From IMG/VR virus record IMGVR_UViG_3300045988_044299: DNA of 34,775 nt; one strand, 5' to 3'. Below the pieces are notes generated by a model. It searched no databases. It was not told where the DNA came from and saw only the letters and a program-made list of their open reading frames with translations. The stretch's first letter is position 1. Every line of letters starts with the position of its first letter. Origin of the DNA: a virus. This document shows positions 1 to 34,775 of the stretch, one piece after another. Made by a program: the position numbers and the translations under genes.

Positions 1-141
1 TCATGGACGCCTATGAGCTGGATATGGCATACGGATCTGACGAGAACAACTTCACATGTACGATAGATCGTGCGAGCCATTGCTGCACAGAAGGTTTCTT
101 CCTGTACGTCGAAGGCGAGGAGTACGGCGGAATCGTCGACA
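1..141. repeat. Terminal overlap identical to 34635-34775; the contig closes into a 34,634-bp circle
   Basis: Direct comparison of the two ends gives 141/141 identity. The reading frame of the tail gene is continuous across the junction. Confidence 0.95.
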
Positions 142-2865: not shown

Positions 2866-3723
2866 ATGAACGAAGTCTATGAGTACATGGACGGCTATGA
2901 TCATTCGAATAGATATAGCGACGACATGGTCTTCGAGGTGTCAAAAGAAGATAAAAGCATTTCAATAATTCGGAAACAGACACTGATCTCCGGGGAAAGA
3001 AATTCGCAGTATATCGCATTCCAGATGCCACGGTACTACGATGGCATTGACCTGTCAGAGAAGAATATTGAAGTAATCTATGTTACAGAGACAGGAATAT
3101 CAGACATCAACAAAGTGATCAATGTACGAAGAAATGAAGAATACCTTCTGTTCGGCTGGGTAGTTCCTGGCGGAGCACTTCAGGATCCTGGCACGCTGTC
3201 CTTCTGCATCGAGTTCGCAGGCGACGAGTACGTAATGAAGACTATGCCTGTCGAAGTGGAAGTCTTCGACGGAATGAACGGATCCGACATCATGGTGGAA
3301 CCGACTGGCCAGGTATGGTACATGCAGATCCAGAACCTGTGCAGCGAGACGTTGGAGAAAGCACAGAATCACGAAACGAATGCAGCTGTGTCCGAAAAAA
3401 ACGCACAGACCTATATGCAGAACGCACAGAACGCATACAGTCAGGCGAACCTGGCAAAAGAAAGCATACAGGGATCCACAAAGCAGATCACGGATAATAA
3501 GACCAGCATCGAGGAACTGAAGAAAGAGAACGCGCAGCTGAAGGCGAGACTGGACGCTGCACTTGCAGACTATACTGGATCAGCAGAAGGAGAGATCGCA
3601 GAGGCAAGGGTGGACAGAAAAGGAAAGACATACGCAACACTGGGGGCAGCAATCAGAGGGCAGTTCGACGAGATCGGGCTGTACATAGACGATGACGGCG
3701 ACATATGCCAGAAGGAGGACTAA
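2866..3723 (+). CDS. BppU-family baseplate upper protein with a coiled-coil C-terminal half
   Basis: The N-terminal pattern (SGERNSQYIAFQMPRYYDGIDLS ... LLFGWVVP ... GTLSFCIEF) is typical of BppU_N. A Q/N/A/K-rich heptad-like segment follows. Confidence 0.65.
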   Translation: MNEVYEYMDGYDHSNRYSDDMVFEVSKEDKSISIIRKQTLISGERNSQYIAFQMPRYYDGIDLSEKNIEVIYVTETGISDINKVINVRRNEEYLLFGWVVPGGALQDPGTLSFCIEFAGDEYVMKTMPVEVEVFDGMNGSDIMVEPTGQVWYMQIQNLCSETLEKAQNHETNAAVSEKNAQTYMQNAQNAYSQANLAKESIQGSTKQITDNKTSIEELKKENAQLKARLDAALADYTGSAEGEIAEARVDRKGKTYATLGAAIRGQFDEIGLYIDDDGDICQKED

Positions 3724-4941
3724 ATGGGTAAATTATTGACGAATGAAGTAGGCTTGCAGATGCTGGAAGAAATGAGACGACAGACAGCCATTTCGGAAGC
3801 AACAGCAAGAGATCAGATCGCAGCACTTGCGTCGCAGATGTCGGCGATCGCTAAGATTGTAAGAGATGGATATGGCAACGTATTAATGGACATCGGTGAT
3901 CAGTTGAACATTGACTGGACAGACGGATCAAAAAGCTACAACGTGCCGCATGACATTGTGCATTTTGCAAACGTCGACCTGAAGAACGGAGACAAGGTTC
4001 CAGGCATGTATCTTCAGTGGCATTTCTGTTCACCGTTCGGTGTTCAGTTCGATGCAGCAGAAGCATTCTATTATGCAGAGACAGAGCTGGCAGCAGGAAC
4101 CTACAACATTATCGTAGGCGACAACTGGGGCAATAATTGCAAGAAAAACAAACAGTATCAGTTCACACTGAGCAAGCCAGTTCCAGCAGGCGGACAGATT
4201 GCAGGATTCTATTCAATGCCGGACAAGGCGGCAGCAGAGTGGACAGTACAGACATTCACAGACGCAAAGAGTACTACACCGATTGAGACAGTGAAACCGA
4301 CAGCCGGATCCAATGGAACAAACCTTGGTACATTGTCATTTGCTGGAGACGGAAAACTGAACAGCTTGCAGCGCGTAGCGTATGGGTACAACAGATGGAG
4401 TCAGTCAGCAATCAGACAGTATCTGAACAGCGCAAAGGCAGCAGGACAGTGGTGGGAACCACAGCACAAGTGGGACAGATCACCAGCAGAACTTGCGTCG
4501 AAGCCTGGATTTCTGTCAGGATATTCAGACGACTTCCTGAACGCGATCAAACCTGTGAGAGTTCGCACAGCATTGAATACGGTCACAGATGCAGCTGTAG
4601 GAGCCTACGAAGACACATACGACAAGATCTTCCTTGCATCATTAGAGCAGGAGTTCATCACACCACAGGCGTCAGGCGTTGAGGGAGAAGCCTGGGACTA
4701 TTGGAAGCAGGCTGTTGAACGCAGCACACCGACACCGTGGTATAAGACATTCGCAGAAGGAGGACACCCGATCACATACGGCATTGATGGAAAGACTTCG
4801 GCGCAGTACGTGCGGTTGCGCAGTGCGTACAGAGGCGGCGCGAGCAATACGTGGAATGTGAACGCGTCCGGCTACGTCTTCAGCGGCTACGTCACCGCAG
4901 TGAGCAGCCTTCGCTTCGCCCCGGCTTGCGTCATCTGCTAA
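3724..4941 (+). CDS. DGR target protein 1, putative receptor-binding protein with a C-terminal variable (C-type-lectin-fold-like) region
   Basis: The last ~45 codons match the template repeat except at TR adenines. The gene sits directly after BppU and directly before avd-TR-RT. Confidence 0.8.
   Translation: MGKLLTNEVGLQMLEEMRRQTAISEATARDQIAALASQMSAIAKIVRDGYGNVLMDIGDQLNIDWTDGSKSYNVPHDIVHFANVDLKNGDKVPGMYLQWHFCSPFGVQFDAAEAFYYAETELAAGTYNIIVGDNWGNNCKKNKQYQFTLSKPVPAGGQIAGFYSMPDKAAAEWTVQTFTDAKSTTPIETVKPTAGSNGTNLGTLSFAGDGKLNSLQRVAYGYNRWSQSAIRQYLNSAKAAGQWWEPQHKWDRSPAELASKPGFLSGYSDDFLNAIKPVRVRTALNTVTDAAVGAYEDTYDKIFLASLEQEFITPQASGVEGEAWDYWKQAVERSTPTPWYKTFAEGGHPITYGIDGKTSAQYVRLRSAYRGGASNTWNVNASGYVFSGYVTAVSSLRFAPACVIC
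4801..4930 (+). repeat. DGR variable region VR1
   Basis: Aligns to TR 5436-5559. Outside the AAC tract there are 10 differences, all at TR adenines. VR1 is 6 nt longer than the TR. Confidence 0.9.
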
Positions 4942-4955
4942 AGCCATCACATAAT

Positions 4956-4979
4956 CTCCGGCACCCACGGATGCCGGAG
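4956..4979 (+). promoter_or_regulatory. Hairpin 3' of VR1 (8-bp stem ctccggca/tgccggag, 8-nt loop cccacgga); candidate DGR target-recognition element
   Basis: Perfect inverted repeat with no T-run after it. The same geometry and the same loop core (ccacg) occur after VR2. Confidence 0.6.
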
Positions 4980-4996
4980 AGGAAAGGGAAAAAGAA

Positions 4997-5416
4997 ATGT
5001 CAGTACCGGAAGGGCAGAGAGGGAAAGGCAAGTTCACAGTGCTTACAAAAGCGAACATGCTAAGTATCTATACAATTAAAATCTGCTGCAATAAAAAGGT
5101 ATTCCTTCCAGAATATCAGCACGCACTTACAGACGACATCATTCGGACAGCGAAAGACATCTTCATGCACTGCTGGACGGCGAATAATATCAGAGTGGGA
5201 AAAGACGAAGAAAAACGGAAGGAACGAAGAAGACTTCAGGAGCAGGCAGCGAACGACTGCAACAATCTCCTGGCACTTATGCAGATGGCGCAGACTCTGT
5301 TCCATCTGAAACTAAAGAGGATTAAATACTGGGGAGAAAGGACGATAGAAGTCAGAACCCTGATAAGATCCTGGATTGAATCAGATACAAAACGCTACTC
5401 ACAAGAGCAGCGATAA
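4997..5416 (+). CDS. avd: Accessory variability determinant (Avd-like basic helical-bundle protein)
   Basis: 139-aa basic, helix-rich ORF in the canonical position between the target gene and the TR. The assignment rests on position and composition, not on a strong motif. Confidence 0.7.
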   Translation: MSVPEGQRGKGKFTVLTKANMLSIYTIKICCNKKVFLPEYQHALTDDIIRTAKDIFMHCWTANNIRVGKDEEKRKERRRLQEQAANDCNNLLALMQMAQTLFHLKLKRIKYWGERTIEVRTLIRSWIESDTKRYSQEQR

Positions 5417-5435
5417 GTATATGGATGTAGGCTGC

Positions 5436-5559
5436 GCGCAGAACGTGCGGTTGCGCAGTGCGAACAGAGGCAACGCGAACAATACGTGGAATGTGAACGC
5501 GTCCGGCAACGTCAACAACAACAACGCAGTGAACAGCAATCGCTTCGCCCCGGATTGCG
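5436..5559 (+). repeat. DGR template repeat (TR)
   Basis: 124 nt rich in AAC/AAT codons. It is homologous to VR1 (4801-4930) and VR2 (21728-21830) with mismatches only at its adenines. Its 3' end (attgcgcagat) diverges from the sequence shared by both VRs (cttgcgtcatc). Confidence 0.9.
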
Positions 5560-5722
5560 CAGATAAGTGGACGAGAAGCCACGCTGTAGGCGTGGTGTCT
5601 GCGAATGATAGACGCAAGGAGCCGAAATCCATGCCTGGAAACAGGCGAACAACACTGTCGTGATGCAAGATGCTTCAGCGAAGCATGGCGCTATATACGC
5701 GGCGGAAACAACAGAATAATAG
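5560..5722 (+). ncRNA. TR-to-RT spacer, probable structured part of the DGR RNA
   Basis: Three hairpins: 5579-5595 (ccacgc/gcgtgg), 5633-5646 (gcctg-GAAA-caggc) and 5670-5686 (atgcttc-agc-gaagcat). There is no credible ORF. Confidence 0.4.
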
Positions 5723-6874
5723 GTGAATTATATGGATGAAGACATCAAGGAGCAAGTGATCGGCTTCGAGGCGCTGTATAAATCAATGCACCGATGCAAG
5801 AAGAACGTGCTCTGGAAGGACTCTGCGGCGAGTTTCTATCTGAATGGGATAGAACAGGCGCTGAAGCTGGAAAAACAGCTGAAAGAAGGCACGTACAAGC
5901 CACGGCCGCCGAAGAAGTTCGAGATCACACATCCGAAAAGAAGAGAAGCTGTGAGCATAGCATTCAGGGATCGCGTGTACCAGAGATCATTGAACGACAA
6001 TGTGATATATCCAATTATGACACAATCGTTCATACATGCGAACATGGCCTGCCAGAAAGGGAAAGGAACGGATGCGGCGGAGAATCTGTTGGACGAGTTC
6101 CTGAAACACTGGTACAGGCTGCACGGCCTGGAAGGCTATGTCTTACAATGCGATATACGCGGATATTACCCAAACATGAGTCACAAAGTAGCAGAGGAGA
6201 CGTTCCGAAAGAAACTGCCTCCGGTGATCTACGAGATGACAGAAAAGATCCTTCGCGAACAGTATGAGGGAGAGAAGGGTTATAATCCGGGAAGCCAGAT
6301 GATCCAGATCGCAGGTATATCAGTCCTGGATCCAATGGATCACATGATAAAGGAGCAGCTTCACACGAAAGAGTTCGAGAGATACATGGACGACTTTCAA
6401 ATGTTTGGAGAGACTATCGAAGAATTGCAATGCCGCCGGAACGCAATAGAGGCATATCTGAACGAAAGAGAGTTCGAGCTGCATCCGAAGAAGACAAGGA
6501 TCTATCCAATCAAAGAAGGAATCAAGTTCCTGGGCTTCACGCACAGGCTGACGAGCACAGGAAAAGTTATCCGGATAATAGATCCGAACAATGTCAAGCA
6601 GGAGCGAAAGAAGCTCCGGCGCATGGTCGGTCTGGTGAAGAAGGGCCAGATGACCAGAAAGAAGGTTGACGAGTGCTTCAAGGCCTGGAAGGCACATGCT
6701 GCGAAAGGCAATTCCACAAAGCTGATCAACCGGATGAACAAATACTATGCAGATCTATGGAAGGAGGATCAGAAGCATGAGCATGACCATGACCAGAAGA
6801 AAGAGAACTGTGAAAGAACAGAGGGAAAGGGAAGACATGCAGGCACAGCTGGAGAAGCAGCAGGCGACACTTGA
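5723..6874 (+). CDS. DGR reverse transcriptase
   Basis: Contains the YMDDF catalytic motif, a GSQMIQIAG motif (the SQ signature of DGR RTs) and KGKGTDAA and FLGF motifs. It lies immediately downstream of the TR. The start could be GTG 5723 or ATG 5732. Confidence 0.9.
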   Translation: MNYMDEDIKEQVIGFEALYKSMHRCKKNVLWKDSAASFYLNGIEQALKLEKQLKEGTYKPRPPKKFEITHPKRREAVSIAFRDRVYQRSLNDNVIYPIMTQSFIHANMACQKGKGTDAAENLLDEFLKHWYRLHGLEGYVLQCDIRGYYPNMSHKVAEETFRKKLPPVIYEMTEKILREQYEGEKGYNPGSQMIQIAGISVLDPMDHMIKEQLHTKEFERYMDDFQMFGETIEELQCRRNAIEAYLNEREFELHPKKTRIYPIKEGIKFLGFTHRLTSTGKVIRIIDPNNVKQERKKLRRMVGLVKKGQMTRKKVDECFKAWKAHAAKGNSTKLINRMNKYYADLWKEDQKHEHDHDQKKENCERTEGKGRHAGTAGEAAGDT

Positions 6875-7886: not shown

Positions 7887-9350
7887 ATGGATAAACAGAC
7901 ATTTATCAAGAAGATCGCCGCATACGTGAAAAAGTATGCGGCACAGTACGGCATCAAGGTATACAGTCCGATCATCGCACAGGCGATCCTGGAGTCCGGC
8001 TGGGGAGAATCAAAACTTGCAGCAGTATATCACAACTACTTCGGGCTGAAATGCGGAACTGCCTGGAAAGGTAAATCTGTAAACATGACCACACAGGAAG
8101 AGTACACGGCCGGAACCCTGACAACGATCAAAGATAACTTCAGAGCCTACAGCAGCATGGAAGAGGGCGTGAAAGGCTACTTCGAGTTCATTCAGCTGAC
8201 CAGATACAGCAACCTGAAGGGAATCACTGATCCGAAGACATATCTGAACACAATCAAAGCGGACGGATATGCGACAAGCTCCAGCTATGTGAAGAATGTG
8301 TATGCACTGATCACACAGTACAAGCTGACACAGTACGATCCTGTGAAAAACGTGGATAAAAAAGTGGATAATGTGAAGTATTCAAGACAGGCAGTCGTGG
8401 ATCTTGTGGAAAGCTGGGTAGGAAAGAAAGAGTCAGACGGATCATACAAGTCAATCATTGACATCTACAACAGTTTTACGGGCAAACTTCCACGTAGTAC
8501 GAAGATGGAATATGGATGGGCGTGGTGCGCGTGTACCTGGTCAGCACTTGCGGTAGCCTTGAAGTACACGCCGATCATGCCGATCGAAATTTCCTGCTAT
8601 TACCTGATCGAAGCAGCGAAGGAGATGGGCGTATGGGTAGAAAACGACGCATACGTGCCAAACATCGGAGACGCTGCACTGTATGACTGGGAAGACACAG
8701 GAAAAGGAGATAACACAGGAAATCCGGATCACGTCGGAACTGTGACCTATGTCAATAAGTCAGCAGGCTACTTCGTGGTGACAGAAGGAAACTACAGCGA
8801 CAGCGTGAAGAAAAGAACCGTGTCCATCAATGGCAGATATATCCGCGGATTTATCGTACCGAAGTACGGCACGACCACAGCAGTCAGTGCTCCGGTTCAG
8901 GTAGCCGGAAAGAGCACTTCAACCGTAGCACACGAAGTCATCGCCGGACAGTGGGGCAACGGGGAAGATAGAAAGAAAGCCCTGAAGGCAGCAGGATATG
9001 ATCCGGCAGTTATCCAGAAAGAAGTCAACAAGATCCTGAACGGATCCGCAGCGACTACAGGCAAAACACAGCCAGCAGATCAGCCGATTACAAAGACAGT
9101 GAAGGCAACCTGCGGAGCTAAGAAGTTCAACAAGAGCCTGGCAGCGACATACAAGACAACGGCGAACCTGTACTGTAGAAATGACGCAGGAAAGAACAAG
9201 AAAGCCCTGTGCCTGATCCCGAAAGGAACGAAGGTACACAACTACGGATATTACAACGTAGCGAACGGAGTGAAGTGGTTATACATCACTGTCACCCTGG
9301 ACGGAACAGAGTACATCGGATTCTGTTCAAAAGAATATCTGAGCAAATAG
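7887..9350 (+). CDS. Multidomain endolysin: N-acetylglucosaminidase, CHAP-like domain, CW_7 repeat and SH3-like C-terminus
   Basis: AQAILESGWG glucosaminidase motif. Cys/His CHAP-like region (WAWCACTW ... DHVGTV). GQWGNGEDRKKALKAAGYD CW_7-like repeat. The C-terminus is SH3b-like. Confidence 0.9.
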   Translation: MDKQTFIKKIAAYVKKYAAQYGIKVYSPIIAQAILESGWGESKLAAVYHNYFGLKCGTAWKGKSVNMTTQEEYTAGTLTTIKDNFRAYSSMEEGVKGYFEFIQLTRYSNLKGITDPKTYLNTIKADGYATSSSYVKNVYALITQYKLTQYDPVKNVDKKVDNVKYSRQAVVDLVESWVGKKESDGSYKSIIDIYNSFTGKLPRSTKMEYGWAWCACTWSALAVALKYTPIMPIEISCYYLIEAAKEMGVWVENDAYVPNIGDAALYDWEDTGKGDNTGNPDHVGTVTYVNKSAGYFVVTEGNYSDSVKKRTVSINGRYIRGFIVPKYGTTTAVSAPVQVAGKSTSTVAHEVIAGQWGNGEDRKKALKAAGYDPAVIQKEVNKILNGSAATTGKTQPADQPITKTVKATCGAKKFNKSLAATYKTTANLYCRNDAGKNKKALCLIPKGTKVHNYGYYNVANGVKWLYITVTLDGTEYIGFCSKEYLSK

Positions 9351-9359
9351 GAGGATAGA

Positions 9360-9524
9360 ATGAAAGCAATCGCAACAGATCGAGTTCCTGATGGAGCACT
9401 TGAAAAGAACGAAGATGGGACTGTGAACACATACGACGCGAACGGAAACAAAGTCGGAACAGCAACTGCTGAAGAAGTAGCAGAAGCGGAAGCACAGATC
9501 ACAGAAGTGGAAATCGAAGAGTAA
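9360..9524 (+). CDS. Small acidic hypothetical protein (54 aa)
   Basis: TAGGAGGA ribosome-binding site 5-6 nt upstream of ATG 9360. A terminator follows. The ORF is below the length cut-off of the supplied ORF track. Confidence 0.45.
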   Translation: MKAIATDRVPDGALEKNEDGTVNTYDANGNKVGTATAEEVAEAEAQITEVEIEE

Positions 9525-9532
9525 AAAAAGAG

Positions 9533-9560
9533 GGCAGCGGTCAAAAGATCGCTGCCTTTT
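9533..9560 (+). terminator. Rho-independent terminator ending the lysis operon
   Basis: 7-bp GC-rich stem (ggcagcg/cgctgcc) with a 10-nt loop, followed by TTTT. Confidence 0.7.
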
Positions 9561-9635
9561 GTGCATTATGCCTCCGGAAGTGTATGGATCAGAGCCGGAT
9601 CGGAGCCACACAAAAGACAAATTGCACAAAAAAGA

Positions 9636-9687
9636 TATTTATACTAACTATTTGTAACCAAACGGTTAGGTATAGTTAGTATAAATA
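9636..9687. other. 52-bp AT-rich imperfect palindrome next to the integrase 3' end; candidate attP core or bidirectional terminator
   Basis: Perfect 16-bp arms (tatttatactaactat / atagttagtataaata) plus an inner pair taacc/ggtta, centred on 9661-9662. Confidence 0.4.
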
Positions 9688-9692
9688 AAAAA

Positions 9693-14002: not shown

Positions 14003-14332
14003 ATGGCAATCAAAAGAACGGTAGAAACAGACGTTTACTGCGATGTGTGTGGCGAGTGGATCATAGGCTGGAGATCCAACGACCAGGGAACCAGCAAACT
14101 ATGGGCGGCATATTTTGCAAGAAAAAAAGGCTGCACAGTTGGGGAAAAGGTTATATGCAAAAAGTGCAGGATCAAGAAGCGGATCCAGACATGCAGCATA
14201 CAGCGAAAAATCGGAAGTGCAGGAAGGGACAGCGATGGAAGCTGCATGGGATTCGGAAGCGAAACATCAGACGAGCCACTGGAGAAGTGCAAACGGTGTA
14301 TTGCGTGCACATCTTACCAGTGGAAAGAATAG
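14003..14332 (+). CDS. Cys-rich hypothetical protein
   Basis: Contains CDVCG ... CKKC ... CKRCIAC motifs. Confidence 0.55.
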   Translation: MAIKRTVETDVYCDVCGEWIIGWRSNDQGTSKLWAAYFARKKGCTVGEKVICKKCRIKKRIQTCSIQRKIGSAGRDSDGSCMGFGSETSDEPLEKCKRCIACTSYQWKE

Positions 14333-14346
14333 TTCAAAGGATAGAA

Positions 14347-14409
14347 GCCGAAACGGTCAGCAATGACCGTCCACCGGAGATAACCTCCCGGTGCTGACGA
14401 TGGCAGGTT
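14347..14409 (+). ncRNA. Type II hammerhead ribozyme, copy A (predicted cleavage after C14371)
   Basis: Order of elements: GCC, GAAA, stem III (cggtca-gcaa-tgaccg), U, C (GUC site), stem I (caccgg ... ccggtg), CUGACGA, U, GGC. The stem I loop aacct can pair with aggtt at 14405-14409. Confidence 0.8.
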
Positions 14410-14494
14410 GAAGTCAGGTGTTCAAGCAGAGCAACGCTATAAAAGGAAAATGCACTTCCGCAGGAAGCATGGATAGCGCAAAGGAGGCAAAAGA

Positions 14495-14882: not shown

Positions 14883-15239
14883 ATGTTTATTTTATCACAG
14901 AACAAAGAGAAGCTGTACAACCTGTCCGGACACATTGAAGGAATCGGGTACGAAGAGACAAAGGAGTATGTCAAAGGAAAGAAGGAAGACAAGATCAGAC
15001 ACACACTCATGGTGTATGACGGATGCTGTGAAGAAGTAGCAGAGTACGAAACAAAAGAGGATTGTATGCTGATCCTGTATGCGGTCTTCAAAGCAATGGA
15101 ACAGGGAGAGAATGCACTGGAGCTTCCAACACAGGAAGAAACGGCCAAACAGAAGGAACTTATGAAACAGGTTATTGAAGCAGGCGGCGAGATCGCAAAA
15201 GAAGCGACGGAGTTGCTGAAGGAAATGTTCAAAGGATAG
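14883..15239 (+). CDS. Hypothetical protein (118 aa)
   Basis: ORF with an AAGGAGGG ribosome-binding site. Its last codons overlap the conserved 5' flank of hammerhead B. Confidence 0.6.
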   Translation: MFILSQNKEKLYNLSGHIEGIGYEETKEYVKGKKEDKIRHTLMVYDGCCEEVAEYETKEDCMLILYAVFKAMEQGENALELPTQEETAKQKELMKQVIEAGGEIAKEATELLKEMFKG

Positions 15240-15241
15240 AA

Positions 15242-15314
15242 GCCGAAACGGGGCACAGGCCCCGTCCGGTCACGATGGCAACGTGATCGCTGACGATGGC
15301 AAGCTGAAAGCCAT
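15242..15314 (+). ncRNA. Type II hammerhead ribozyme, copy B (predicted cleavage after C15266)
   Basis: Order of elements: GCC, GAAA, stem III (cggggc-acag-gccccg), U, C, stem I (cggtcacg-atggcaa-cgtgatcg), CUGACGA, U, GGC. The stem I loop atggc can pair with gccat at 15310-15314. Confidence 0.8.
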
Positions 15315-19580: not shown

Positions 19581-20027
19581 ATGAAACTGAACAAGATCAC
19601 GGAATGGATCAAGAAGCAGATCACAAGACATAAGAATAACAGCGGACAGATTGACCGGGATCCGGAGCGACTGCCTACGTTCGTGTCGAAACGAATGAAC
19701 CTGCCAGTCGGAGCGAAGGAAGCGGCCGAAAAGAAAATAAAAATTGACTGCACTGTAAGTTCATATAATGCCAGCACAGACGAAATAGCAAAGGCACTGG
19801 AGAAACTGGGGAAAGTAGGGTATACGATAGGCGAGAAGGAAGGAACACAAAAGGAACAGCCTATGAGCAACAATCGCCGCAAGATGAAAGGGATCCCGAT
19901 GATCAGACGGCAGCAGCTGAGAAGAGCACAGAGGAATCGGAGAAAAAAGACGAACGGCTGGCAGCAGTTGGGAGAGAGAAAGTATTGGAACCAGGAGGAG
20001 AACGCATGGTATACACACAAGCAGTGA
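19581..20027 (+). CDS. Hypothetical basic protein containing a 66-bp copy of a terminase-large-subunit segment
   Basis: ORF with a GGGAGGAAGG ribosome-binding site. 19661-19726 is about 94% identical to 24395-24460. Confidence 0.5.
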   Translation: MKLNKITEWIKKQITRHKNNSGQIDRDPERLPTFVSKRMNLPVGAKEAAEKKIKIDCTVSSYNASTDEIAKALEKLGKVGYTIGEKEGTQKEQPMSNNRRKMKGIPMIRRQQLRRAQRNRRKKTNGWQQLGERKYWNQEENAWYTHKQ

Positions 20028-21115: not shown

Positions 21116-21856
21116 ATGGAAGACAGATGCGTGATGTGTGGCGAAATCATACCGGAGGGAAGAATGGTGTGTCCGGTATGCGAAGAAAGAGTATTGACCA
21201 GAAAAGGAGAACAGACAATGAAAGCGAGAACAATCAGAGAAACAGAGTACACATGGGAGCAGATCGAGGAGATCTTGGCAGCAGGTAAGGCAAGAGAAAC
21301 ATTCGGAGAAGATGGACAGATCACAGTCCAGGTCGAAGGAATTGGAACGGCCCTGTTGAATATCCTGGACTACGACAAGGACAAGGCTGCGGATCCGGAC
21401 ATGCGAACAATGACATTGCAGTTTGCAGATCTTCCGTTCGATGAAATGCCATTCGATGAAAACGGCTGTAACAAATGGGAGAAGTCCAGCATTCGCAGAA
21501 ACATGAACAGCATCGCCTTCAAGGAGAGATTCGAGGAAGGGTTCAGAAGACTCCTGGTTCCTGTGCTGAAGGAGAACGGAGACAGAGAGGCAACACTGGA
21601 CACGTTCTTCCTTCTGTCCGTGGAAGAAATGAAGGACGAAGAAAAGAAGTACCAGCGGTTCAGATCAGAACGCGACTGCGTGAAAGTCAATCCGGAGCAG
21701 GAGACAGAGTGGCACTGGACAAGATCCGCGTACAGAGGCACCGCGTACGATACGTGGAATGTGTACGCGTCCGGCTACGTCTACGACTACTACGGCGCAG
21801 TGTACAGCGGTCGCTTCGCCCCGGCTTGCGTCATCGGAGCGAAAGCAATCAAATAA
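21116..21856 (+). CDS. DGR target protein 2: N-terminal CxxC-CxxC zinc-ribbon-like segment plus a C-terminal variable domain
   Basis: The C-terminus (WTRSAYRGTAYDTWNVYASGYVYDYYGAVYSGRFAPACVIG) matches the TR except at adenines. An alternative internal start exists at MKARTIRE with an AAAGGAGA ribosome-binding site. Confidence 0.8.
   Translation: MEDRCVMCGEIIPEGRMVCPVCEERVLTRKGEQTMKARTIRETEYTWEQIEEILAAGKARETFGEDGQITVQVEGIGTALLNILDYDKDKAADPDMRTMTLQFADLPFDEMPFDENGCNKWEKSSIRRNMNSIAFKERFEEGFRRLLVPVLKENGDREATLDTFFLLSVEEMKDEEKKYQRFRSERDCVKVNPEQETEWHWTRSAYRGTAYDTWNVYASGYVYDYYGAVYSGRFAPACVIGAKAIK
21728..21830 (+). repeat. DGR variable region VR2
   Basis: Aligns to TR 5460-5559. Outside the AAC tract there are 10 differences, all at TR adenines. 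VR2 is 3 nt longer than the TR. Confidence 0.9.
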
Positions 21857-21859
21857 TCA

Positions 21860-21879
21860 GCGCCCGCCACGCAGGGCGC
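21860..21879 (+). promoter_or_regulatory. Hairpin 3' of VR2 (6-bp stem gcgccc/gggcgc, 8-nt loop gccacgca)
   Basis: It has the same spacing from the conserved ataatc motif, the same loop length and the same ccacg core as the VR1 hairpin. No T-run follows. Confidence 0.55.
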
Positions 21880-23490: not shown

Positions 23491-25154
23491 CAGACATCAG
23501 CAGGATTCCGGAGATCCAGGACTGGATCGACATTGTTGAAAACGACACATACAAGTGCAGCAAAGATCAAAAATTGCTTGTAAAACACGTGAAAAAGTGC
23601 TTCAAAAACGAAAAAATTCACGTCAATACAGAGCAGTTGTCGAAATATATGCACATTGCGAAAGAGTATGTGCCGTTCGACCTTTTTCCGTGGCAGAAGT
23701 TCATCATCGCCCTGCATGACTGTACATATTGGGACGACAGTGGGATGCCGCGATGGCCGGATTTGTTCGCTATGTTAGGGCGTGGAGCAGGCAAGGACGG
23801 AACGATCGCCGTTGAAGCGTTCTGCCTGACATCACCGTACAACGGAATCAGAGAGTACGACGTGGACATCTGTGCCAACAACGAAGAGCAGGCCATGCGT
23901 CCGGTGCAGGATCTGACCGGATTTTTCGAGGAACCGAAGATTCTGCGTAAGATCAAAAAGTTTTACGACTGGACAAAGGAAAAGATCACATGCAGCAAGA
24001 CAAAGAGCACAGTCAAAGGACGAACCAACAGCCCGAAGGGCAAGGATGGCCTGCGTTCTGGCATCGTGATCTTCAACGAGATTCACCAGTATGAGAACTA
24101 CGACAACATAAACGTTTTTACGACCGGACTGGGAAAGAAAGAACACCCACGCCGGAGCTATTACACGACGAACGGAGACGTGCGAGAGGGGCCGCTGGAC
24201 GACCTTCTGGAAGATGCAGAGGGCATCTTGCAGGGAGAAGAAGACGACAACGGTCTGCTGCCGTTTGTCTGCCGCCTGGATAGCAAAAAAGAGGTTGACG
24301 ACGAGGCAAACTGGACAAAAGCAAACCCGTCATTGCCATACCTGCCGAACCTTCTGGCTGAAACCAGGAAAGAGTACAGGGAGTGGAAGAAGAATCCGGA
24401 GCGACTGCCTGCGTTCATGTCGAAACGAATGAACCTGACAGCCGGAGCGAAGGAAGCGGCGGTCACTTCCTGGGAAAACATCAAGGCAACGAACAAAGAA
24501 CTGCCGGAACTGAAAGGCTGGAGCTGCACTGTCGGGATTGACTACATGAAGACGTCCGACTTTGCAGCAGTGAACTTCCACTTCAAGGACGGAGACAAGC
24601 GATACGACATCAATCACGCCTGGATCTGTTCAGCATCGAAAGACATTCCGCGGATCAAGGCTCCGTGGCGTGAGTGGGTGAAGAAGGGACAGCTGGAGTA
24701 TGTGGACGACATCGAGATCCACCCGTCTGTAATTGCGAACTACATCGCAGAGACAGGGAAGAAGTATTCGATCGCTATGGTTGCGATAGATAACTACAGA
24801 TATTCTCTGTTATCTGACGCGCTGGCACGTGCCGGGATCTCAAAAGAGCACGGAAACCTGATACTTGTGAAGCAGACGGACATCATCACAGTGGTTCCGA
24901 TCATAGACCACTGCTTCTTGAACCAGTATTTTCACTGGGGCGATGATCCAGTGCTGAGATGGGCGACCAATAACACGAAGGTGATCCGGTACGGACGGCA
25001 GCAGGGAGCAGACAAGGGTTCATTCGTGTACGCAAAGATCGAGGCACGAAGCAGAAAGACGGATCCATTCATGGCACTGGTGGCGTCAATGGTTCCGGAA
25101 TCAAAGATAAAAGAACGACCGAAGGTCAGAAAGGTCAGAACGATAACACTATAG
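23487..25154 (+). CDS. terL: Terminase large subunit
   Basis: 555 aa. Walker-A-like GRGAGKDG, followed by a nuclease half. The GTGA start overlaps the terS stop. Confidence 0.9.
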   Translation: MTDISRIPEIQDWIDIVENDTYKCSKDQKLLVKHVKKCFKNEKIHVNTEQLSKYMHIAKEYVPFDLFPWQKFIIALHDCTYWDDSGMPRWPDLFAMLGRGAGKDGTIAVEAFCLTSPYNGIREYDVDICANNEEQAMRPVQDLTGFFEEPKILRKIKKFYDWTKEKITCSKTKSTVKGRTNSPKGKDGLRSGIVIFNEIHQYENYDNINVFTTGLGKKEHPRRSYYTTNGDVREGPLDDLLEDAEGILQGEEDDNGLLPFVCRLDSKKEVDDEANWTKANPSLPYLPNLLAETRKEYREWKKNPERLPAFMSKRMNLTAGAKEAAVTSWENIKATNKELPELKGWSCTVGIDYMKTSDFAAVNFHFKDGDKRYDINHAWICSASKDIPRIKAPWREWVKKGQLEYVDDIEIHPSVIANYIAETGKKYSIAMVAIDNYRYSLLSDALARAGISKEHGNLILVKQTDIITVVPIIDHCFLNQYFHWGDDPVLRWATNNTKVIRYGRQQGADKGSFVYAKIEARSRKTDPFMALVASMVPESKIKERPKVRKVRTITL

Positions 25155-30950: not shown

Positions 30951-33771
30951 TAAGAATGAGGCAAAAATACGGTTTGTAGCCGAAACTTCCGATCTGTCTC
31001 AAAAAATTAAAGATGCCAATAGTGACATAAAAGGATTAAGCGCAGAACTACGGCTGAATGAAGCAGAGTTCAAAAATACTGGAGACGCTGCCACCTATAT
31101 GGCGAATAAACAAAAATTGCTTGAAGAAGAAATCGCGGCAAATAAGCAGAAACAAGAAGCTCTTAATGGAAAGATGCAACTAGCAAAGCAGATTTTCGGA
31201 GAAAACAGTGACGAAGCGCAGAAGTGGTCGAGGCAGCTTATAAATGCGAAAACAGAAGGCGAACGTTTAAAAACGCAAGTAAATGAGCTAAACACGGAAC
31301 TTGATGCGAACGAGGAAGATCTGGAAAATGCTGGAACGGCTGCCGAAGAAGCGGGAGATGGCTACACAGTACTGAAAGGAGCAATGTCAGAACTGGTAGC
31401 AGATGGAATCACAGCTGTAAAAGATGGAGCTGTAGAGCTTGCAACAGATTCAAGCAAAGCATACGCACAGTTTGCGGCACAAACCGGAATAGCAGCAGAC
31501 GCTATGGACGGATATAAAAAGGCCATACAGGACGTATACCTGGATAATTTTGGCGAAAGTCTGGAAGAAGTAGCGGAAAAGATGGGGAAGGTCAAGGAAA
31601 CGACTGGAGAACTGGATCCATCGAAGCTAAAAGAAATGACAGAAAATGCCATGACATTAGAAGATACATTCGACATGGATATGAGCGAATCCTTACGAGG
31701 TGCAGAGGCATTAATGACTCATTTCGGATTGACATCGGAGCAGGCTTTTGATCTGCTGGCAGCAGGTGCGCAAAACGGATTGAATTATTCCGATGAATTG
31801 GGCGACAATGTGGCAGAGTATTCGGGAAAATTCGCAGAAGCAGGATATTCAGCGAAAGATTATTTTGAACTGTTAAAAAATGGAAGTCAAGGCGGGGCTT
31901 ACAACTTAGATAAAGTCAATGATTCGATCAATGAAGTGACTACAAGGCTGGCGGATGGAACTATAGAGGAAGGACTCGGAAACTTTAGCGGCAAAACGAA
32001 AGAAACTTTTGAAGCGTGGAAGACGGGCGGTGCGACTCAAAAAGATGTGATAGATTCCATTGTGGCAGACATACAGGGAACGACCAATGAGCAGGAAAAA
32101 ATGAATATGGCTGCGTTGGCATTTGGAACAATGGCCGAAGACGGAGGAACAAAGTTCATTGAAGCATTATCGAGCACTGGTTCAGCATTTGACGATACAA
32201 AAGGAAAAATGCAGGGCTTGATGTCGGTAAAGTACGATGATATAGAGAGTTCTATAAGCGGATTGGGTAGAGCTATAAGACAAAATGTGTTGCAGCCAGT
32301 CGTGGATGAAGTCACACCGAAGGTAACAGAAAGCATTCAGGAAATCACAGGAAAAATACCAGAAGCAGTGCAAAAAGTACAAGAAATGCTTCCGGTACTG
32401 GGAGGAGTAGCAATAGCAGTAGGCGTAGTAACGGCGGCATTAAAATTACAGGCAGCAGTTACGGCCGTAAAGACGGCAATGGACGCGGCACAGGTTACGA
32501 CATTGAGTGGACTAATAGCGGCCGAATGGGCACAAGCCACGGCCGCCGCCGCCGCGTTTGCACCGTATCTATTGATTGTAGCAGCAATAGCAGCAGTTGT
32601 AGCAGCAATAGTGCTTTTGGTAAAGAACTGGGATGCTGTAAAAGAAAAATGTATTGAAGTTGCGCAGATTATAGGCGAAAAGTGGCATGAAATAAGCACA
32701 GCAATTCAGACTGCTATATCCACGGCATTCAACACGGCAAGTACAGTGGTGAGTACAGTGACAGCAGCAATTCAGACTGCTATATCCACGGCATTCAACA
32801 CAGCAAGTACAGTGGTGAGTACAGTGACAGCAGCAATTCAGGCTGCTATATCAACGGCATTCAACACAGCAAGTACAGTGGTGAGTACAGTGACAGCAGC
32901 AATTCAGACTGCTATATCCACGGCATTCAACACAGCAAGTACAGTGGTGAGCACAGTGACGTCAGCAATTCGGACGGCCGTATCAACAGCGTTCAATGCA
33001 ATGAAGACAGCAGTGACAACAGCTGTGAATGCAACAAAGACAGCGGTGACGACTGTATGGAATGGAATCAAGTCGACAGTATCTACAGTAGTGAATGCGG
33101 TCAGAACAACTGTAACAACAGTATGGAACGGCATCAGATCAGTGACATCATCAGTATGGAACGGGATCAAGACAGCTGTGACAACACCGATCAATGCGGC
33201 GAAGTCGGCTGTCAGTACGACAGTGAACGGAATACGAAGCACGATGACATCTGTCTTCGGAGGAATCAGGTCAACGGTATCGAGCATCTTCAGCGGGATC
33301 CAGTCGGCGATTACAAGCCCGATCCAGACTGCAAAGAACACACTGGCGAACCTGGTGTCAGGGATCAGAGGACTGTTCTCCGGACTGCATATATCACTGC
33401 CGCACATTAACCTGCCACATTTCCGTATATCTGGAGGTACGCCGCCGTATGGTATCGCAGGAAAAGGAACAGCGCCTTCCATCGGCATCGACTGGTATGC
33501 ACAGGGCGCGGTCTTGAAGAAAGCAACTTCGTTCGGAATCAATACCGTAACGGGCAACAGAATGGTAGGAGGAGAAGCAGGATATGAAGCAGTAGCGCCA
33601 ATCGACGTGTTACAGGGATATATACAGGCAGCAGTGGAGTCAGTAGTTGGGAACAGTGCACTGGACTATGACCTCCTGGCGGATAAGATTGCAAACGCAT
33701 GTGCAAGAACGAACACCACGCTGGAGCTGGACGGCAGACAGCTGGGGAGAGTAGTCAGGGGGTATGTATGA
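30940..33771 (+). CDS. Tape measure protein
   Basis: 943 aa with a coiled-coil N-terminus, a hydrophobic central segment and long tandem repeats. AAGGAGGG ribosome-binding site precedes GTG 30940. Confidence 0.9.
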   Translation: MANNKNEAKIRFVAETSDLSQKIKDANSDIKGLSAELRLNEAEFKNTGDAATYMANKQKLLEEEIAANKQKQEALNGKMQLAKQIFGENSDEAQKWSRQLINAKTEGERLKTQVNELNTELDANEEDLENAGTAAEEAGDGYTVLKGAMSELVADGITAVKDGAVELATDSSKAYAQFAAQTGIAADAMDGYKKAIQDVYLDNFGESLEEVAEKMGKVKETTGELDPSKLKEMTENAMTLEDTFDMDMSESLRGAEALMTHFGLTSEQAFDLLAAGAQNGLNYSDELGDNVAEYSGKFAEAGYSAKDYFELLKNGSQGGAYNLDKVNDSINEVTTRLADGTIEEGLGNFSGKTKETFEAWKTGGATQKDVIDSIVADIQGTTNEQEKMNMAALAFGTMAEDGGTKFIEALSSTGSAFDDTKGKMQGLMSVKYDDIESSISGLGRAIRQNVLQPVVDEVTPKVTESIQEITGKIPEAVQKVQEMLPVLGGVAIAVGVVTAALKLQAAVTAVKTAMDAAQVTTLSGLIAAEWAQATAAAAAFAPYLLIVAAIAAVVAAIVLLVKNWDAVKEKCIEVAQIIGEKWHEISTAIQTAISTAFNTASTVVSTVTAAIQTAISTAFNTASTVVSTVTAAIQAAISTAFNTASTVVSTVTAAIQTAISTAFNTASTVVSTVTSAIRTAVSTAFNAMKTAVTTAVNATKTAVTTVWNGIKSTVSTVVNAVRTTVTTVWNGIRSVTSSVWNGIKTAVTTPINAAKSAVSTTVNGIRSTMTSVFGGIRSTVSSIFSGIQSAITSPIQTAKNTLANLVSGIRGLFSGLHISLPHINLPHFRISGGTPPYGIAGKGTAPSIGIDWYAQGAVLKKATSFGINTVTGNRMVGGEAGYEAVAPIDVLQGYIQAAVESVVGNSALDYDLLADKIANACARTNTTLELDGRQLGRVVRGYV
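32701..32964 (+). repeat. Four near-identical in-frame 66-bp tandem repeats inside the tape measure gene
   Basis: Units start at 32701, 32767, 32833 and 32899, each encoding AIQTAISTAFNTASTVVSTVTA. Degenerate copies continue to about 33330. Confidence 0.95.
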
Positions 33772-34601: not shown

Positions 34602-34775
34602 TATATGCGGATGCACACAGAGTAGATCAGGGCGTCATGGACGCCTATGAGCTGGATATGGCATACGGATCTGACGAGAACAACTTCACATGTACGATAG
34701 ATCGTGCGAGCCATTGCTGCACAGAAGGTTTCTTCCTGTACGTCGAAGGCGAGGAGTACGGCGGAATCGTCGACA
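34592..34775 (+). CDS. 5' part of the Tal-position tail protein; continues at base 3 after circular closure
   Basis: ATG 34592 overlaps the Dit stop (ATGGATCTGA). The frame is continuous with 3-1781 through the duplicated 141 bp. Confidence 0.7.
   Translation, partial: MDLIYADAHRVDQGVMDAYELDMAYGSDENNFTCTIDRASHCCTEGFFLYVEGEEYGGIVD
34635..34775. repeat. Second copy of the 141-bp terminal overlap
   Basis: Identical to 1-141. Confidence 0.95.

What the first reader, a model, noticed from the sequence alone, without database searches (positions are those of the whole stretch)
3724..6874. Complete diversity-generating retroelement (target, avd, TR, RT) attached to the baseplate module
The gene order is the canonical DGR cassette.
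- The RT carries YMDDF and the SQ-containing motif (GSQMIQIAG) typical of DGR RTs.
- TR 5436-5559 aligns to VR1 4801-4930 at the 3' end of the gene that follows the BppU baseplate protein.
- Outside one AAC tract there are 10 mismatches. Every one is at a TR adenine (for example aac to tac, ggc or agc, and aat to ctt), and no C, G or T position differs.
- The TR is packed with AAC/AAT codons.
- The shared VR 3' end (cttgcgtcatc) differs from the TR (attgcgcagat), as expected for an IMH versus IMH* distinction.

The element is therefore likely diversifying the phage receptor-binding protein.
Basis: partly seen in the sequence, partly recalled or inferred. Interest (0 to 1): 0.85.

Follow-up and report, generated by a model that had tools for sequence, protein, structure and literature searches.

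The report
Active two-target DGR in gut prophage
This is a genuine, apparently active diversity-generating retroelement in a temperate Blautia gut phage; it rewrites the tips of two lectin-like proteins, a well-known type of system of which this is an ordinary new example.

Summary
TR 5436-5559 matches VR1 4801-4930 at the 3' end of ORF 3724-4941. All 10 substitutions fall on TR adenines (0 of 84 non-A positions; Fisher p = 2e-7).

The gene order is target, Avd (4997-5416), TR, structured spacer, RT (5732-6874). A second, remote target is VR2 21728-21830 in ORF 21116-21856, beside SSB, with 10 more A-only changes.

In related genomes (92-98% identical) the VRs vary almost only at TR-adenine positions. 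Two private TR substitutions in one genome reappear in both of its VRs. The element therefore copies TR into both targets.

Both targets carry DUF6273. Their models match only the C-type-lectin-like N-terminal domain of T. ramosa IgA protease.

- The canonical (I/V/L)GxxxSQ motif is P-GSQM-IQ here; the "SQ" it saw is out of register.
- "BppU" is not supported.
- A receptor-binding role is inferred, not shown.

The AAC-tract length difference (TR 4 codons, VR1 6, VR2 5) recurs across this RT family, always as insertions. This fits published RT slippage on AAC repeats.

The host is Blautia obeum. Two-target DUF6273 DGRs are already described, so this is a new member of a known kind.

The parts
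3724..4941 (+). Target gene 1 (T1, 405 aa). The model shows an N-terminal helix, a beta-sandwich, and a C-terminal DUF6273 / C-type-lectin-like domain.
   Evidence: Pfam DUF6273 covers residues 218-391 (E 2.4e-12). The AF2 model has pLDDT 92.3. Foldseek matches 9qa6, the IgA protease, at E 6.8e-9. A profile of T1 homologues hits residues 63-136 of the protease's N-terminal domain.
4801..4930 (+). VR1, the variable repeat. The tract of 6 NNC codons lies at 4879-4896.
   Evidence: It has 10 A-only substitutions against the TR. It is hypervariable at A positions among 6 distinct relatives: 67 of 168 A cells against 2 of 504 non-A cells.
4912..4935 (+). IMH-like 3' end of VR1 (CGCTTCGCCCCGGCTTGCGTCATC). 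It is identical at VR2.
4956..4979 (+). GC-rich hairpin 20 nt after the IMH (CTCCGGCA-CCCACGGA-TGCCGGAG). No T-run follows it.
   Evidence: Read from the sequence. It is conserved in relatives. No + strand terminator was called in this region.
4997..5416 (+). Avd-like accessory gene (139 aa).
   Evidence: phrog_3206 'Avd protein of DGR', E 1.1e-11, full length. Pfam 23S_rRNA_IVP is below threshold only (17 bits against a cut-off of 33.8). There is no PDB sequence hit.
5436..5559 (+). Template repeat (TR). It has 36 adenines, and the (AAC)4 tract lies at 5514-5525.
   Evidence: The TR carries (AAC)4 in all 11 related genomes where it was seen.
5541..5564 (+). IMH*-like 3' end of the TR (CGCTTCGCCCCGGATTGCGCAGAT).
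5560..5731 (+). Structured TR-RT spacer, the presumed 3' part of the DGR RNA.
   Evidence: RNAalifold predicts 56 pairs. Every substitution among the 4 variants that falls on a predicted pair keeps the pair: one compensatory A:U to G:C change, and the rest G:U or one-sided changes. There is no Rfam family match.
5732..6874 (+). Reverse transcriptase (380 aa). YMDD is intact, and motif 4 reads PGSQMIQ.
   Evidence: Pfam RVT_1. phrog_1423, E 3e-75. Best PDB hit is bRT 8ub7, E 4.5e-19. Motif alignment. Family-level link to TR/VR pairs.
21116..21856 (+). Target gene 2 (T2, 246 aa). An alternative start at 21218 gives 212 aa. It is a small DUF6273 protein, and the long form has a 34-aa CxxC...CxxC N-terminal extension.
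   Evidence: Pfam DUF6273, E 6.4e-11; DZR_2 is weak. AF2 pLDDT is 82.7, and drops below 50 at VR residues. Foldseek matches 9qa6 at E 3e-3. Both candidate starts have Shine-Dalgarno sequences.
21728..21830 (+). VR2, the remote variable repeat. The tract of 5 NNC codons lies at 21782-21796, and the IMH at 21812-21835.
   Evidence: It has 10 A-only substitutions against the TR: 10 of 24 A positions and 0 of 64 non-A positions, p = 4e-7. Among 9 close relatives, 89 of 205 A cells vary against 3 of 561 non-A cells.
21860..21879 (+). GC-rich hairpin 24 nt after the VR2 IMH (GCGCCC-GCCACGCA-GGGCGC).
   Evidence: Phages of the other group carry a compensatory C:G to T:A change in the stem. The loop shares CCACG with the VR1 hairpin.

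Best explanation
This is a functional DGR of a temperate siphovirus of Blautia (Lachnospiraceae).

**Proposed mechanism**
1. The cassette is transcribed, and the TR plus its structured spacer form the template RNA.
2. The RT, with Avd, copies the TR into cDNA and misincorporates at template adenines.
3. The cDNA replaces the homologous VR.
4. Two features at each VR give directionality and target recognition. The first is a shared IMH (…CCGGCTTGCGTCATC), which differs from the TR's IMH* (…CCGGATTGCGCAGAT). The second is a GC-rich hairpin 20-24 nt downstream.

**Targets**
- VR1 lies in the 405-aa tail-module protein next to the cassette.
- VR2 lies in a small 212/246-aa paralogous DUF6273 protein, 16 kb away at the junction of the replication and packaging modules.
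- In both, the variable codons (AAC/AAT in the TR) fall in the last ~45 residues of a C-type-lectin-like domain, so they diversify a presumed ligand-binding surface.

**Length variation**
On the (AAC)4 tract the enzyme occasionally re-copies a codon. The VR loops then become 1-2 residues longer than the template.

**Shown**
- The anatomy of the element.
- A-specific TR-to-VR information flow into both targets.
- Recurrent codon insertions.

**Inferred**
- The cDNA mechanism, by homology to Bordetella phage BPP-1.
- The receptor-binding role of T1.
- Any role of T2.
For: **Sequence pattern in the window**
- The TR/VR1 and TR/VR2 pairs each have 10 substitutions, all at TR adenines.

**Variation between genomes**
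- Among 92-98% identical genomes, VR1 varies at 67 of 168 A cells against 2 of 504 non-A cells. VR2 varies at 89 of 205 against 3 of 561.
- The two non-A changes in contig IMGVR_UViG_3300045988_014808 are T47C and G50C. They are private substitutions of that contig's own TR, and they appear in both its VR1 (L004) and its VR2 (L018).

**RT and Avd**
- The RT has intact YMDD. Its best solved relative is bRT 8ub7 (E 4.5e-19), ahead of a group II maturase (7e-14).
- Its GenBank phage relatives are DGR phages: nd12, nd4, Toutatis, Lelie, Brigit, Shimadzu and Bordetella phages.
- 69 of 77 IMG/VR loci with this RT family have an A-biased TR/VR pair in the same layout.
- Avd matches the PHROG for Avd.

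**Cis elements**
- Hairpins follow both VRs, and one shows a compensatory change.
- Substitutions in the spacer helices all preserve pairing.

**Codon insertions**
- All 11 genomes with a visible TR have (AAC)4.
- VR1 has 6 tract codons in the window and 5 in L120, L121 and L122. VR2 has 5 in the window, L014 and L032. Every extra codon in these close relatives is NNC.
- 12 of 69 family loci have a VR longer than the TR by 3 or 6 nt inside the AAC tract, and none is shorter by 3.
- No (AAC)5-6 TR exists in IMG/VR.
- The slippage interpretation is published (PMC5758913; PMC12875486).

**Target fold**
- The T1 and T2 models hit only 9qa6. Its authors describe the matched N-terminal domain as C-type-lectin-like (PMC12237041).

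**Phage context**
- The temperate phage context is shown.
- The same prophage sits in Blautia obeum assembly GCA_003459025.1 and in a 128-kb metagenome scaffold.
Against: - No read-level data from this sample were available. Activity in this particular genome is inferred from its relatives.
- The RT lacks the canonical (I/V/L)GxxxSQ. It has Pro where bRT has Ile181, a residue shown to promote adenine mutagenesis (PMC7826257).
- Avd is supported only by a PHROG hit. Pfam is below threshold, and there is no PDB sequence match.
- Foldseek gives no hit to Mtd, TvpA or other solved DGR variable proteins. The lectin-like assignment is therefore indirect.
- No evidence places T1 or T2 in the virion.
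- T2's position next to SSB does not suggest a tail protein.
- Selection for longer loops could produce the insertion-only bias without any enzymatic bias.
Confidence: 0.88

Rival explanations
1. The cassette in this genome is a fossil. The TR/VR pattern records past DGR activity, and the element no longer mutagenises.
For: No read-level variation could be examined. The RT has a non-canonical motif 4. Published Faecalibacterium prophages with intact DGRs showed no read-level signal in culture (PMC11792537).
Against: All parts are intact: RT with YMDD, Avd, TR, IMH/IMH* and the hairpins. Every related genome has a different VR. A recent private TR mutation has been copied into both VRs of one close relative. 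The same motif variant occurs in 120 of 120 homologues and is linked to A-biased repeats in 69 of 77 loci.
Confidence: 0.08
2. RT slippage does not produce the extra codons in VR1 (+2) and VR2 (+1). They come from earlier TR alleles with longer AAC tracts, or from duplication or recombination within the VR DNA.
For: VR1 contains the 9-nt string GGCTACGTC twice, at 4870-4878 and 4885-4893. This is unlikely if three AAC codons mutated independently, so a template jump or a duplication is possible. Only 11 TRs were seen.
Against: All 11 TRs have (AAC)4. No (AAC)5-6 TR exists in IMG/VR. Four independent genomes pair a longer VR1 with an (AAC)4 TR. The inserted codons are NNC, are not tandem copies of their neighbours, and have different sequences in each genome. 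The same +3/+6 pattern recurs at the homologous tract in 12 divergent family members.
Confidence: 0.12
3. The diversified proteins are not host-receptor-binding proteins. T1 could be an accessory adhesin or decoration protein. T2 could be a non-virion protein expressed with the early or middle genes.
For: - T1 follows, rather than replaces, a Gp10_C fibre-like protein. One of its PHROG hits is annotated 'Hoc-like head decoration'.
- T2 sits between SSB and HNH/TerS.
- Small DUF6273 homologues occupy the same place after the replication genes in unrelated phages, with no RT within 10 kb.
- The authors who described such pairs call their function unclear (PMC11792537; PMC10743442).
Against: T1 is the last gene of the tail module (Dit, minor tail, fibre-like, a 285-aa protein, then T1). 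BFVD neighbours of its model include tail-collar fibre and receptor-binding proteins. The lectin-like fold with a C-terminal VR is the classic architecture of DGR-diversified phage tropism proteins.
Confidence: 0.3

Closest known systems
Bordetella phage BPP-1 DGR (mtd-avd-TR-brt)
   Same: - Same gene order: target, avd, TR, spacer, RT.
[quoted passage not shown]
- A-only mutagenesis.
- An IMH versus IMH* distinction.
- A GC-rich hairpin downstream of the VR.
- bRT is the best solved relative of this RT.
   Different: - This RT reads PGSQMIQ where bRT has IGSLTSQ.
- The target has no detectable sequence or Foldseek similarity to Mtd.
- The hairpin loops are 8 nt.
- There is a second, remote target.
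- The host is a Gram-positive gut anaerobe.
Faecalibacterium prophages Lelie and CP11 (PMC11792537)
   Same: One DGR with two VRs, in a large and a small target protein that both carry DUF6273, with the VR at the C-terminal end of the domain. They are temperate gut Firmicutes phages. Lelie also uses a large serine (phiC31-type) integrase.
   Different: The RT is only about 31% identical to Lelie's. The genome is different (34.6 kb against 53 kb) and so is the host (Blautia). There is no nucleotide similarity.
Gut virome phages nd12 and nd4, tgt2 proteins (PMC10743442)
   Same: Small single-domain DUF6273 targets with a 3' VR, modelled as C-type-lectin-like. The DGRs have two targets. The nd12 RT is the closest named GenBank phage RT (36.6%).
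   Different: In nd4 and nd12 the other target is a 'tentaclin' (N-terminal C-lec plus Ig domains), and both targets lie in the cassette. Here both targets are DUF6273 proteins, and one is 16 kb away.
Unannotated human faecal phage MT835491.1
   Same: This is the closest GenBank record. Its RT is 51% identical. Part of the cassette is 69% identical at the nucleotide level. A T2-like gene lies about 13 kb from the RT.
   Different: It is a 59.5-kb genome, it carries no annotation, and it is not the same species.
TR/VR length differences at AAC repeats (Wu et al. 2018, PMC5758913)
   Same: These are indels in multiples of 3 nt adjacent to AAC repeats, attributed to RT template slippage. They are reported in about 7% of DGRs.
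   Different: - The frequency here is higher: 12 of 69 family loci, 4 of 11 VR1 and 3 of 9 VR2 among close relatives.
- The changes seen are insertions only.
- They occur in phage-borne DGRs, whereas that survey found 3-nt-multiple indels mostly in non-phage lineage-4 DGRs.

Membership tests
Diversity-generating retroelement (DGR) | A TR/VR repeat pair whose differences fall (almost) only at TR adenines | tested here: met
   VR1 has 10 of 10 substitutions at A, and VR2 has 10 of 10. Non-A differences number 0 of 84 and 0 of 64.
Diversity-generating retroelement (DGR) | An RT of the DGR clade encoded next to the TR | tested here: met
   The best PDB relative is bRT 8ub7, E 4.5e-19, ahead of group II maturases. 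GenBank phage hits are DGR phages. 69 of 77 loci of this RT family have A-biased TR/VR pairs. No formal phylogeny was built.
Diversity-generating retroelement (DGR) | The signature RT motif 4, (I/V/L)GxxxSQ. This is a signature rather than an obligatory feature: about 90% of DGR RTs have it, and SP, SH, NQ, PA, AQ and VQ variants are known (PMC3521204). | tested here: not met
   Aligned to bRT IGSLTSQ, this RT and 120 of 120 homologues read PGSQ(M/L)(I/V)Q. Only G and the final Q are kept. A-mutagenesis is nonetheless evident, so this is a motif variant and not grounds for exclusion.
Diversity-generating retroelement (DGR) | The VR lies inside an ORF, at its 3' end, in frame, with AAC/AAT codons in the TR | tested here: met
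   VR1 ends 11 nt before the stop of ORF 3724-4941. VR2 ends 26 nt before the stop of ORF 21116-21856. The TR has 14 Asn codons in frame.
Diversity-generating retroelement (DGR) | An IMH at the VR 3' end that differs from the IMH* at the TR 3' end | tested here: met
   Both VRs share CGCTTCGCCCCGGCTTGCGTCATC, and the TR has CGCTTCGCCCCGGATTGCGCAGAT. Function was not tested.
Diversity-generating retroelement (DGR) | Evidence of ongoing TR-to-VR transfer (activity) | tested here: met
   Variation between genomes is confined to A positions. Private TR substitutions are copied into both VRs of one genome. Read-level data for this sample were not available.
Diversity-generating retroelement (DGR) | Adenine-mutagenic cDNA synthesis primed from the spacer RNA, requiring RT-Avd | not testable with these tools
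   Only a conserved, structured spacer can be shown.
Diversity-generating retroelement (DGR) | A hairpin or cruciform downstream of the VR, as used for target recognition in phage DGRs | tested here: met
   There are 8-bp and 6-bp GC-rich stems 20 and 24 nt after the IMH of VR1 and VR2. No T-run follows either. Relatives carry one compensatory change. The role of the hairpins is inferred.
Avd (accessory variability determinant) | A small helical protein of the Avd / 23S_rRNA_IVP family encoded between the target and the TR | tested here: inconclusive
   phrog_3206 'Avd protein of DGR', E 1.1e-11, full length. Pfam PF05635 scores only 17 bits against a cut-off of 33.8. There is no PDB sequence hit. 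Position and size (139 aa) fit.
C-type-lectin-fold DGR variable proteins | The VR is displayed on a C-type-lectin-like domain | tested here: met
   Pfam at E <= 1 and PHROGs give no BppU hit for ORFs 2866-3723, 1785-2849 or 3-1781. The hits obtained are Gp10_C, minor tail protein and Dit.

The most novel reading that the evidence does not exclude
The small remote target T2 may not be a virion protein. It and its homologues sit directly after the replication genes (SSB, recombinase, methylase) and before the terminase in at least four unrelated phage backbones. In the loci where the flanks could be read (L124, L126), no RT lies within 10 kb. In this lineage T2 also has a zinc-ribbon N-terminus. 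It could therefore be a DGR-diversified binder that acts inside the cell or on the cell surface, for example against variable host defence or exclusion factors.

A lesser novelty is also possible. This RT clade, with Pro in place of bRT Ile181, may be intrinsically prone to backward slippage on (AAC)4. The element would then diversify loop length as well as sequence.
Probability: 0.1. Interest if true: 0.7.

Novelty: new member of a known kind. Interest (0 to 1): 0.3.

Why it matters
- **A well-documented natural example.** One TR feeds two targets, and a private TR mutation traced into both VRs gives direct comparative evidence for this.
- **A host that can be obtained.** The phage is linked to a cultivable host, Blautia obeum (assembly GCA_003459025.1 carries the prophage). 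Induction, virion proteomics and cDNA sequencing are therefore feasible.
- **Codon insertions.** Insertions at the AAC tract are frequent and one-directional across this RT clade.
- **A non-canonical RT motif.** The clade is large and evidently functional yet carries PGxxx(I/V)Q. It is a natural test of which RT residues adenine mutagenesis needs.
- **Limits.** None of this changes the current picture of DGRs. Gut phages with two DUF6273 targets and AAC-tract indels are already published.

Tried and rejected
- **Host search by DNA pattern.** Genome-contig scans for the TR end and for the IMH both returned 0 matches. The host came from protein cluster names and encoding contigs instead.
- **GenBank phages at nucleotide level.** Only one partial hit at 69% identity.
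- **Rfam.** No family covers the TR or the spacer.
- **PDB sequence searches.** Nothing for Avd. For the T2 profile only chance-level hits (E 0.28, an unrelated initiator-binding protein).
- **Foldseek.** No match to Mtd, TvpA or canonical C-type lectins at meaningful scores. Surfactant protein A and CD23 appear only at E > 0.6.
- **NCBIfam.** No DGR-specific model hit. group_II_RT_mat scores far below its cut-off.
- **Cassette of the other phages carrying a 95%-identical T2 gene.** No RT, Avd or TR lies within their fetched flanks, and they are not among the best 80 RT-family loci. Whether they have their own cassette is unresolved.
- **(AAC)5-6 TR alleles.** None in IMG/VR.
- **Chance repeat or ordinary paralogy.** Rejected because of the strict A bias.
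- **Group II intron or retron RT.** Rejected because bRT scores better, a TR/VR pair and Avd are present, and there is no intron or msr/msd context.

Full report
**Observation.** ORF 3724-4941 (405 aa) ends with a 130-nt stretch, 4801-4930. This stretch repeats, with differences, at 5436-5559 in the gap between ORF 4997-5416 and ORF 5732-6874.

In the target's reading frame the downstream copy reads as 14 AAC/AAT codons. Outside one tract the two copies differ at 10 positions. All 10 are adenines in the downstream copy: 10 of 28 A positions against 0 of 84 other positions, Fisher p = 2.3e-7. The copies diverge after ...CCCCGG(C/A)TTGCG into TCATC (VR) and CAGAT (TR).

**A second target.** The repeat search also found a third copy at 21728-21830, at the 3' end of ORF 21116-21856. 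It differs from the TR at 10 positions, all TR adenines (0 of 64 non-A positions, p = 4e-7). It shares with VR1 the exact 24-nt end CGCTTCGCCCCGGCTTGCGTCATC. The element therefore has two variable repeats fed by one template.

**Genome context.**
- The window has a 141-nt terminal direct repeat, so it is a complete circular assembly of about 34.6 kb.
- PHROG and Pfam annotation gives this order: TerS, TerL, portal, protease, major capsid, adaptor, major tail, tape measure, Dit, minor tail protein (3-1781), a Gp10_C fibre-like protein (1785-2849), a 285-aa protein with only sub-threshold, coiled-coil-type hits (2866-3723), T1, Avd, TR, RT, XkdX-like, holin, endolysin.
- On the minus strand follow a large serine integrase and a repressor.
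- Next come the early genes: replication initiator, ParA/ParB-like, MazF-like and SSB. T2 follows, then two unknown ORFs and an HNH gene, and the order returns to TerS.
No BppU match was obtained even at E <= 1.

**Host.** The same prophage is integrated in a 128-kb metagenome scaffold, with bacterial genes directly after the endolysin. It is also in assembly GCA_003459025.1, whose T1 homologue is named as a Blautia obeum protein.

**The proteins.**
- *RT.* It matches RVT_1 and phrog_1423. Its best solved relative is the Bordetella phage DGR RT (8ub7, E 4.5e-19), ahead of a group II intron maturase (6me0, 7e-14). By tblastn its relatives among GenBank phages are DGR-bearing phages: nd12, nd4, FP_Toutatis, Lelie, FP_Brigit, Roseburia phage Shimadzu and Bordetella phages.
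- *Family-level test.* Because the motif is atypical, I checked the RT family as a whole. Of 77 IMG/VR loci encoding RTs 53-63% identical to this one, 69 carry an A-biased repeat pair (at least 80% of mismatches at A of the RT-proximal copy). All have the same layout. This is a bona fide DGR RT clade with a variant motif.
- *Avd.* The 139-aa ORF matches the PHROG 'Avd protein of DGR' over its full length (E 1e-11). It matches the Pfam family only below threshold.

**The targets.**
- Both T1 and T2 carry Pfam DUF6273, with the VR at the domain's C-terminal end.
- The AlphaFold models are confident: T1 has pLDDT 92.3, and T2 has 82.7, dropping below 50 exactly at the variable residues.
- Foldseek against the PDB returns one meaningful hit for each, the Thomasclavelia ramosa IgA protease 9qa6 (E 6.8e-9 and 3e-3).
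- A profile of T1 homologues aligns residues 219-287 to residues 63-136 of that protein (E 3e-4). This lies inside its N-terminal domain.
- The lectin-like fold is therefore supported, but indirectly. No solved DGR variable protein (such as Mtd or TvpA) was retrieved.
- BFVD neighbours of the T1 model are DUF6273 proteins, a tail-collar fibre and a 'receptor binding protein'.

**Activity.** I could not map reads, so I used related genomes as a proxy.
- Pattern scans of IMG/VR with the TR end and the IMH retrieved 33 loci. Encoding-contig look-ups added six more.
- Among genomes 92-98% identical to the window, six distinct VR1 sequences differ from the TR at 67 of 168 A cells and 2 of 504 non-A cells. 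Nine distinct VR2 sequences differ at 89 of 205 and 3 of 561.
- Both non-A differences in VR1, and two of the three in VR2, come from one contig (IMGVR_UViG_3300045988_014808). That contig's own TR carries exactly these substitutions, T47C and G50C.
- A recent TR mutation has thus been written into both targets of that genome. This is the directional TR-to-VR transfer that defines mutagenic retrohoming, and it shows that the remote VR2 is a real target.

**Cis elements.**
- A GC-rich hairpin lies 20 nt after the VR1 IMH (4956-4979) and 24 nt after the VR2 IMH (21860-21879). Neither is followed by a T-run, and their 8-nt loops share CCACG.
- In a second group of phages that carry a 95%-identical T2 gene, the stem has a compensatory C:G to T:A change.
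- This matches the position of the stem-loop required for target recognition in BPP-1 (mentioned in PMC12875486). Its function here is inferred.
- The 172-nt spacer between the TR and the RT folds into several helices. Every substitution among the four sequence variants that falls on a predicted pair preserves the pair, and one is a double compensatory change. Rfam has no matching family.

**The length difference.**
- The TR tract is (AAC)4. VR1 has six codons (TTC AGC GGC TAC GTC ACC), and VR2 has five (TAC GAC TAC TAC GGC).
- All 11 related genomes in which the TR is visible have (AAC)4. A gapped pattern scan found no TR with a 13-18-nt tract in IMG/VR.
- Even so, VR1 has five tract codons in three further genomes that each carry an (AAC)4 TR (L120-L122). 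VR2 has five in L014 and L032. T1 homologues at 92% identity or more are 403 aa, or in four clusters 404 aa, and never 402.
- In these close relatives every extra codon is NNC. Across all 34 VRs, 144 of 153 tract codons end in C.
- In the wider RT family, 12 of 69 loci have a VR 3 or 6 nt longer than the TR at the homologous AAC tract, and none is 3 nt shorter.
- This fits the published proposal of RT slippage on AAC repeats (PMC5758913; PMC12875486). Here the change is frequent and always an insertion, which could reflect enzyme bias or selection for longer loops.
- One oddity remains. VR1 contains GGCTACGTC twice (4870-4878 and 4885-4893), which hints at a template jump rather than simple re-copying.

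**Comparison with known systems.**
- Mechanistically and architecturally this is a BPP-1-type DGR.
- The pairing of a large and a small DUF6273 target from one TR is described for Faecalibacterium prophages Lelie and CP11 (PMC11792537).
- DUF6273 'tgt2' proteins are described in phages nd4 and nd12 (PMC10743442).
- Non-adjacent targets within prophages, and 3-nt-multiple indels at AAC repeats, are in the Wu et al. survey (PMC5758913).
- The phage itself has no close relative in GenBank phages. The best is MT835491.1, with 51% RT identity. It is common in human-gut metagenomes and is present in a Blautia obeum isolate assembly.

**Verdict.**
- The element is an ordinary but well-preserved and evidently active DGR, a new member of a known kind.
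- The small target deserves a further look. In every phage examined it lies after the replication genes, and wherever its flanks could be read no RT was within reach. Its function is unknown.

Noticed in passing
window 14346-14412 and 15241-15309 (+): There are two type II hammerhead ribozyme matches in the same orientation, 895 nt apart (Rfam RF02276). The first scores 42.8 bits, above the gathering score of 37. The second scores 32.9 bits, E 4e-4. Both have an intact CUGAnGA...GAAA core. Each follows a small ORF (14003-14332 and 14883-15239) within a duplicated segment of about 900 nt (repeats D11 and D15).
   Followed up: partly
window 19660-19726 and 24394-24460 (+): A 67-nt direct repeat (94% identical) lies in the same reading phase in an unannotated 148-aa ORF (19581-20027, just upstream of a MazF-like gene) and inside the large terminase gene. 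It encodes a shared 24-aa patch, PERLP(T/A)F(V/M)SKRMNL..GAKEAA. Both copies are conserved in relatives. Its meaning is unknown.
   Followed up: partly
window 21116-21217: T2 has two candidate starts, each with a Shine-Dalgarno sequence. ATG 21116 adds a 34-aa CxxC...CxxC zinc-ribbon-like extension. ATG 21218 gives the 211-212-aa form that most homologues have. Which form is made is unresolved.
   Followed up: partly
loci L005-L010, L012, L016, L017, L020-L030 (IMG/VR); L124, L126: A T2 gene about 95% identical, with the same IMH and hairpin, occurs in phages whose flanks are unrelated to the window. More distant small DUF6273 homologues sit in the same place, after SSB, recombinase or methylase genes and before the terminase, in yet other backbones. 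No RT, Avd or TR lies within the fetched flanks. Their VRs also vary mainly at A positions (139 of 312 against 19 of 832).
   Followed up: partly
T1 residues 219-287 / PDB 9qa6 residues 63-136: DUF6273 appears homologous to the N-terminal C-type-lectin-like domain of the Thomasclavelia ramosa IgA protease, a domain whose function is unknown (profile E 3e-4; Foldseek E 6.8e-9).
   Followed up: partly
window 4870-4878 and 4885-4893: The 9-nt string GGCTACGTC occurs twice in VR1, once before and once inside the expanded tract. Independent mutation of AAC codons would rarely produce this, so it may mark a template jump during cDNA synthesis.
   Followed up: no
window 1-141 and 34635-34775: An exact 141-nt terminal direct repeat shows that the contig is a circularly closed (or terminally redundant) complete genome. 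The ORF starting at position 3 continues from the other end.
   Followed up: yes
window 32633-33028: Five tandem 66-nt (22-aa) repeats lie inside the tape measure gene. Further 102-210-nt-spaced repeats (motif APAW...NKYY) lie in the minor tail protein at 786-1545.
   Followed up: no
window 9350-9690; L038 15.8-21 kb; L123 15.8-21 kb: The prophage-host junction lies just after the endolysin. The two integrated copies examined are followed by different bacterial genes: Cupin, GH2 and MatE in one, and TIR_2 plus a two-component system in the other. Integration sites or host strains therefore differ. The phage also encodes ParA/ParB-like and MazF-like proteins alongside a serine integrase.
   Followed up: no
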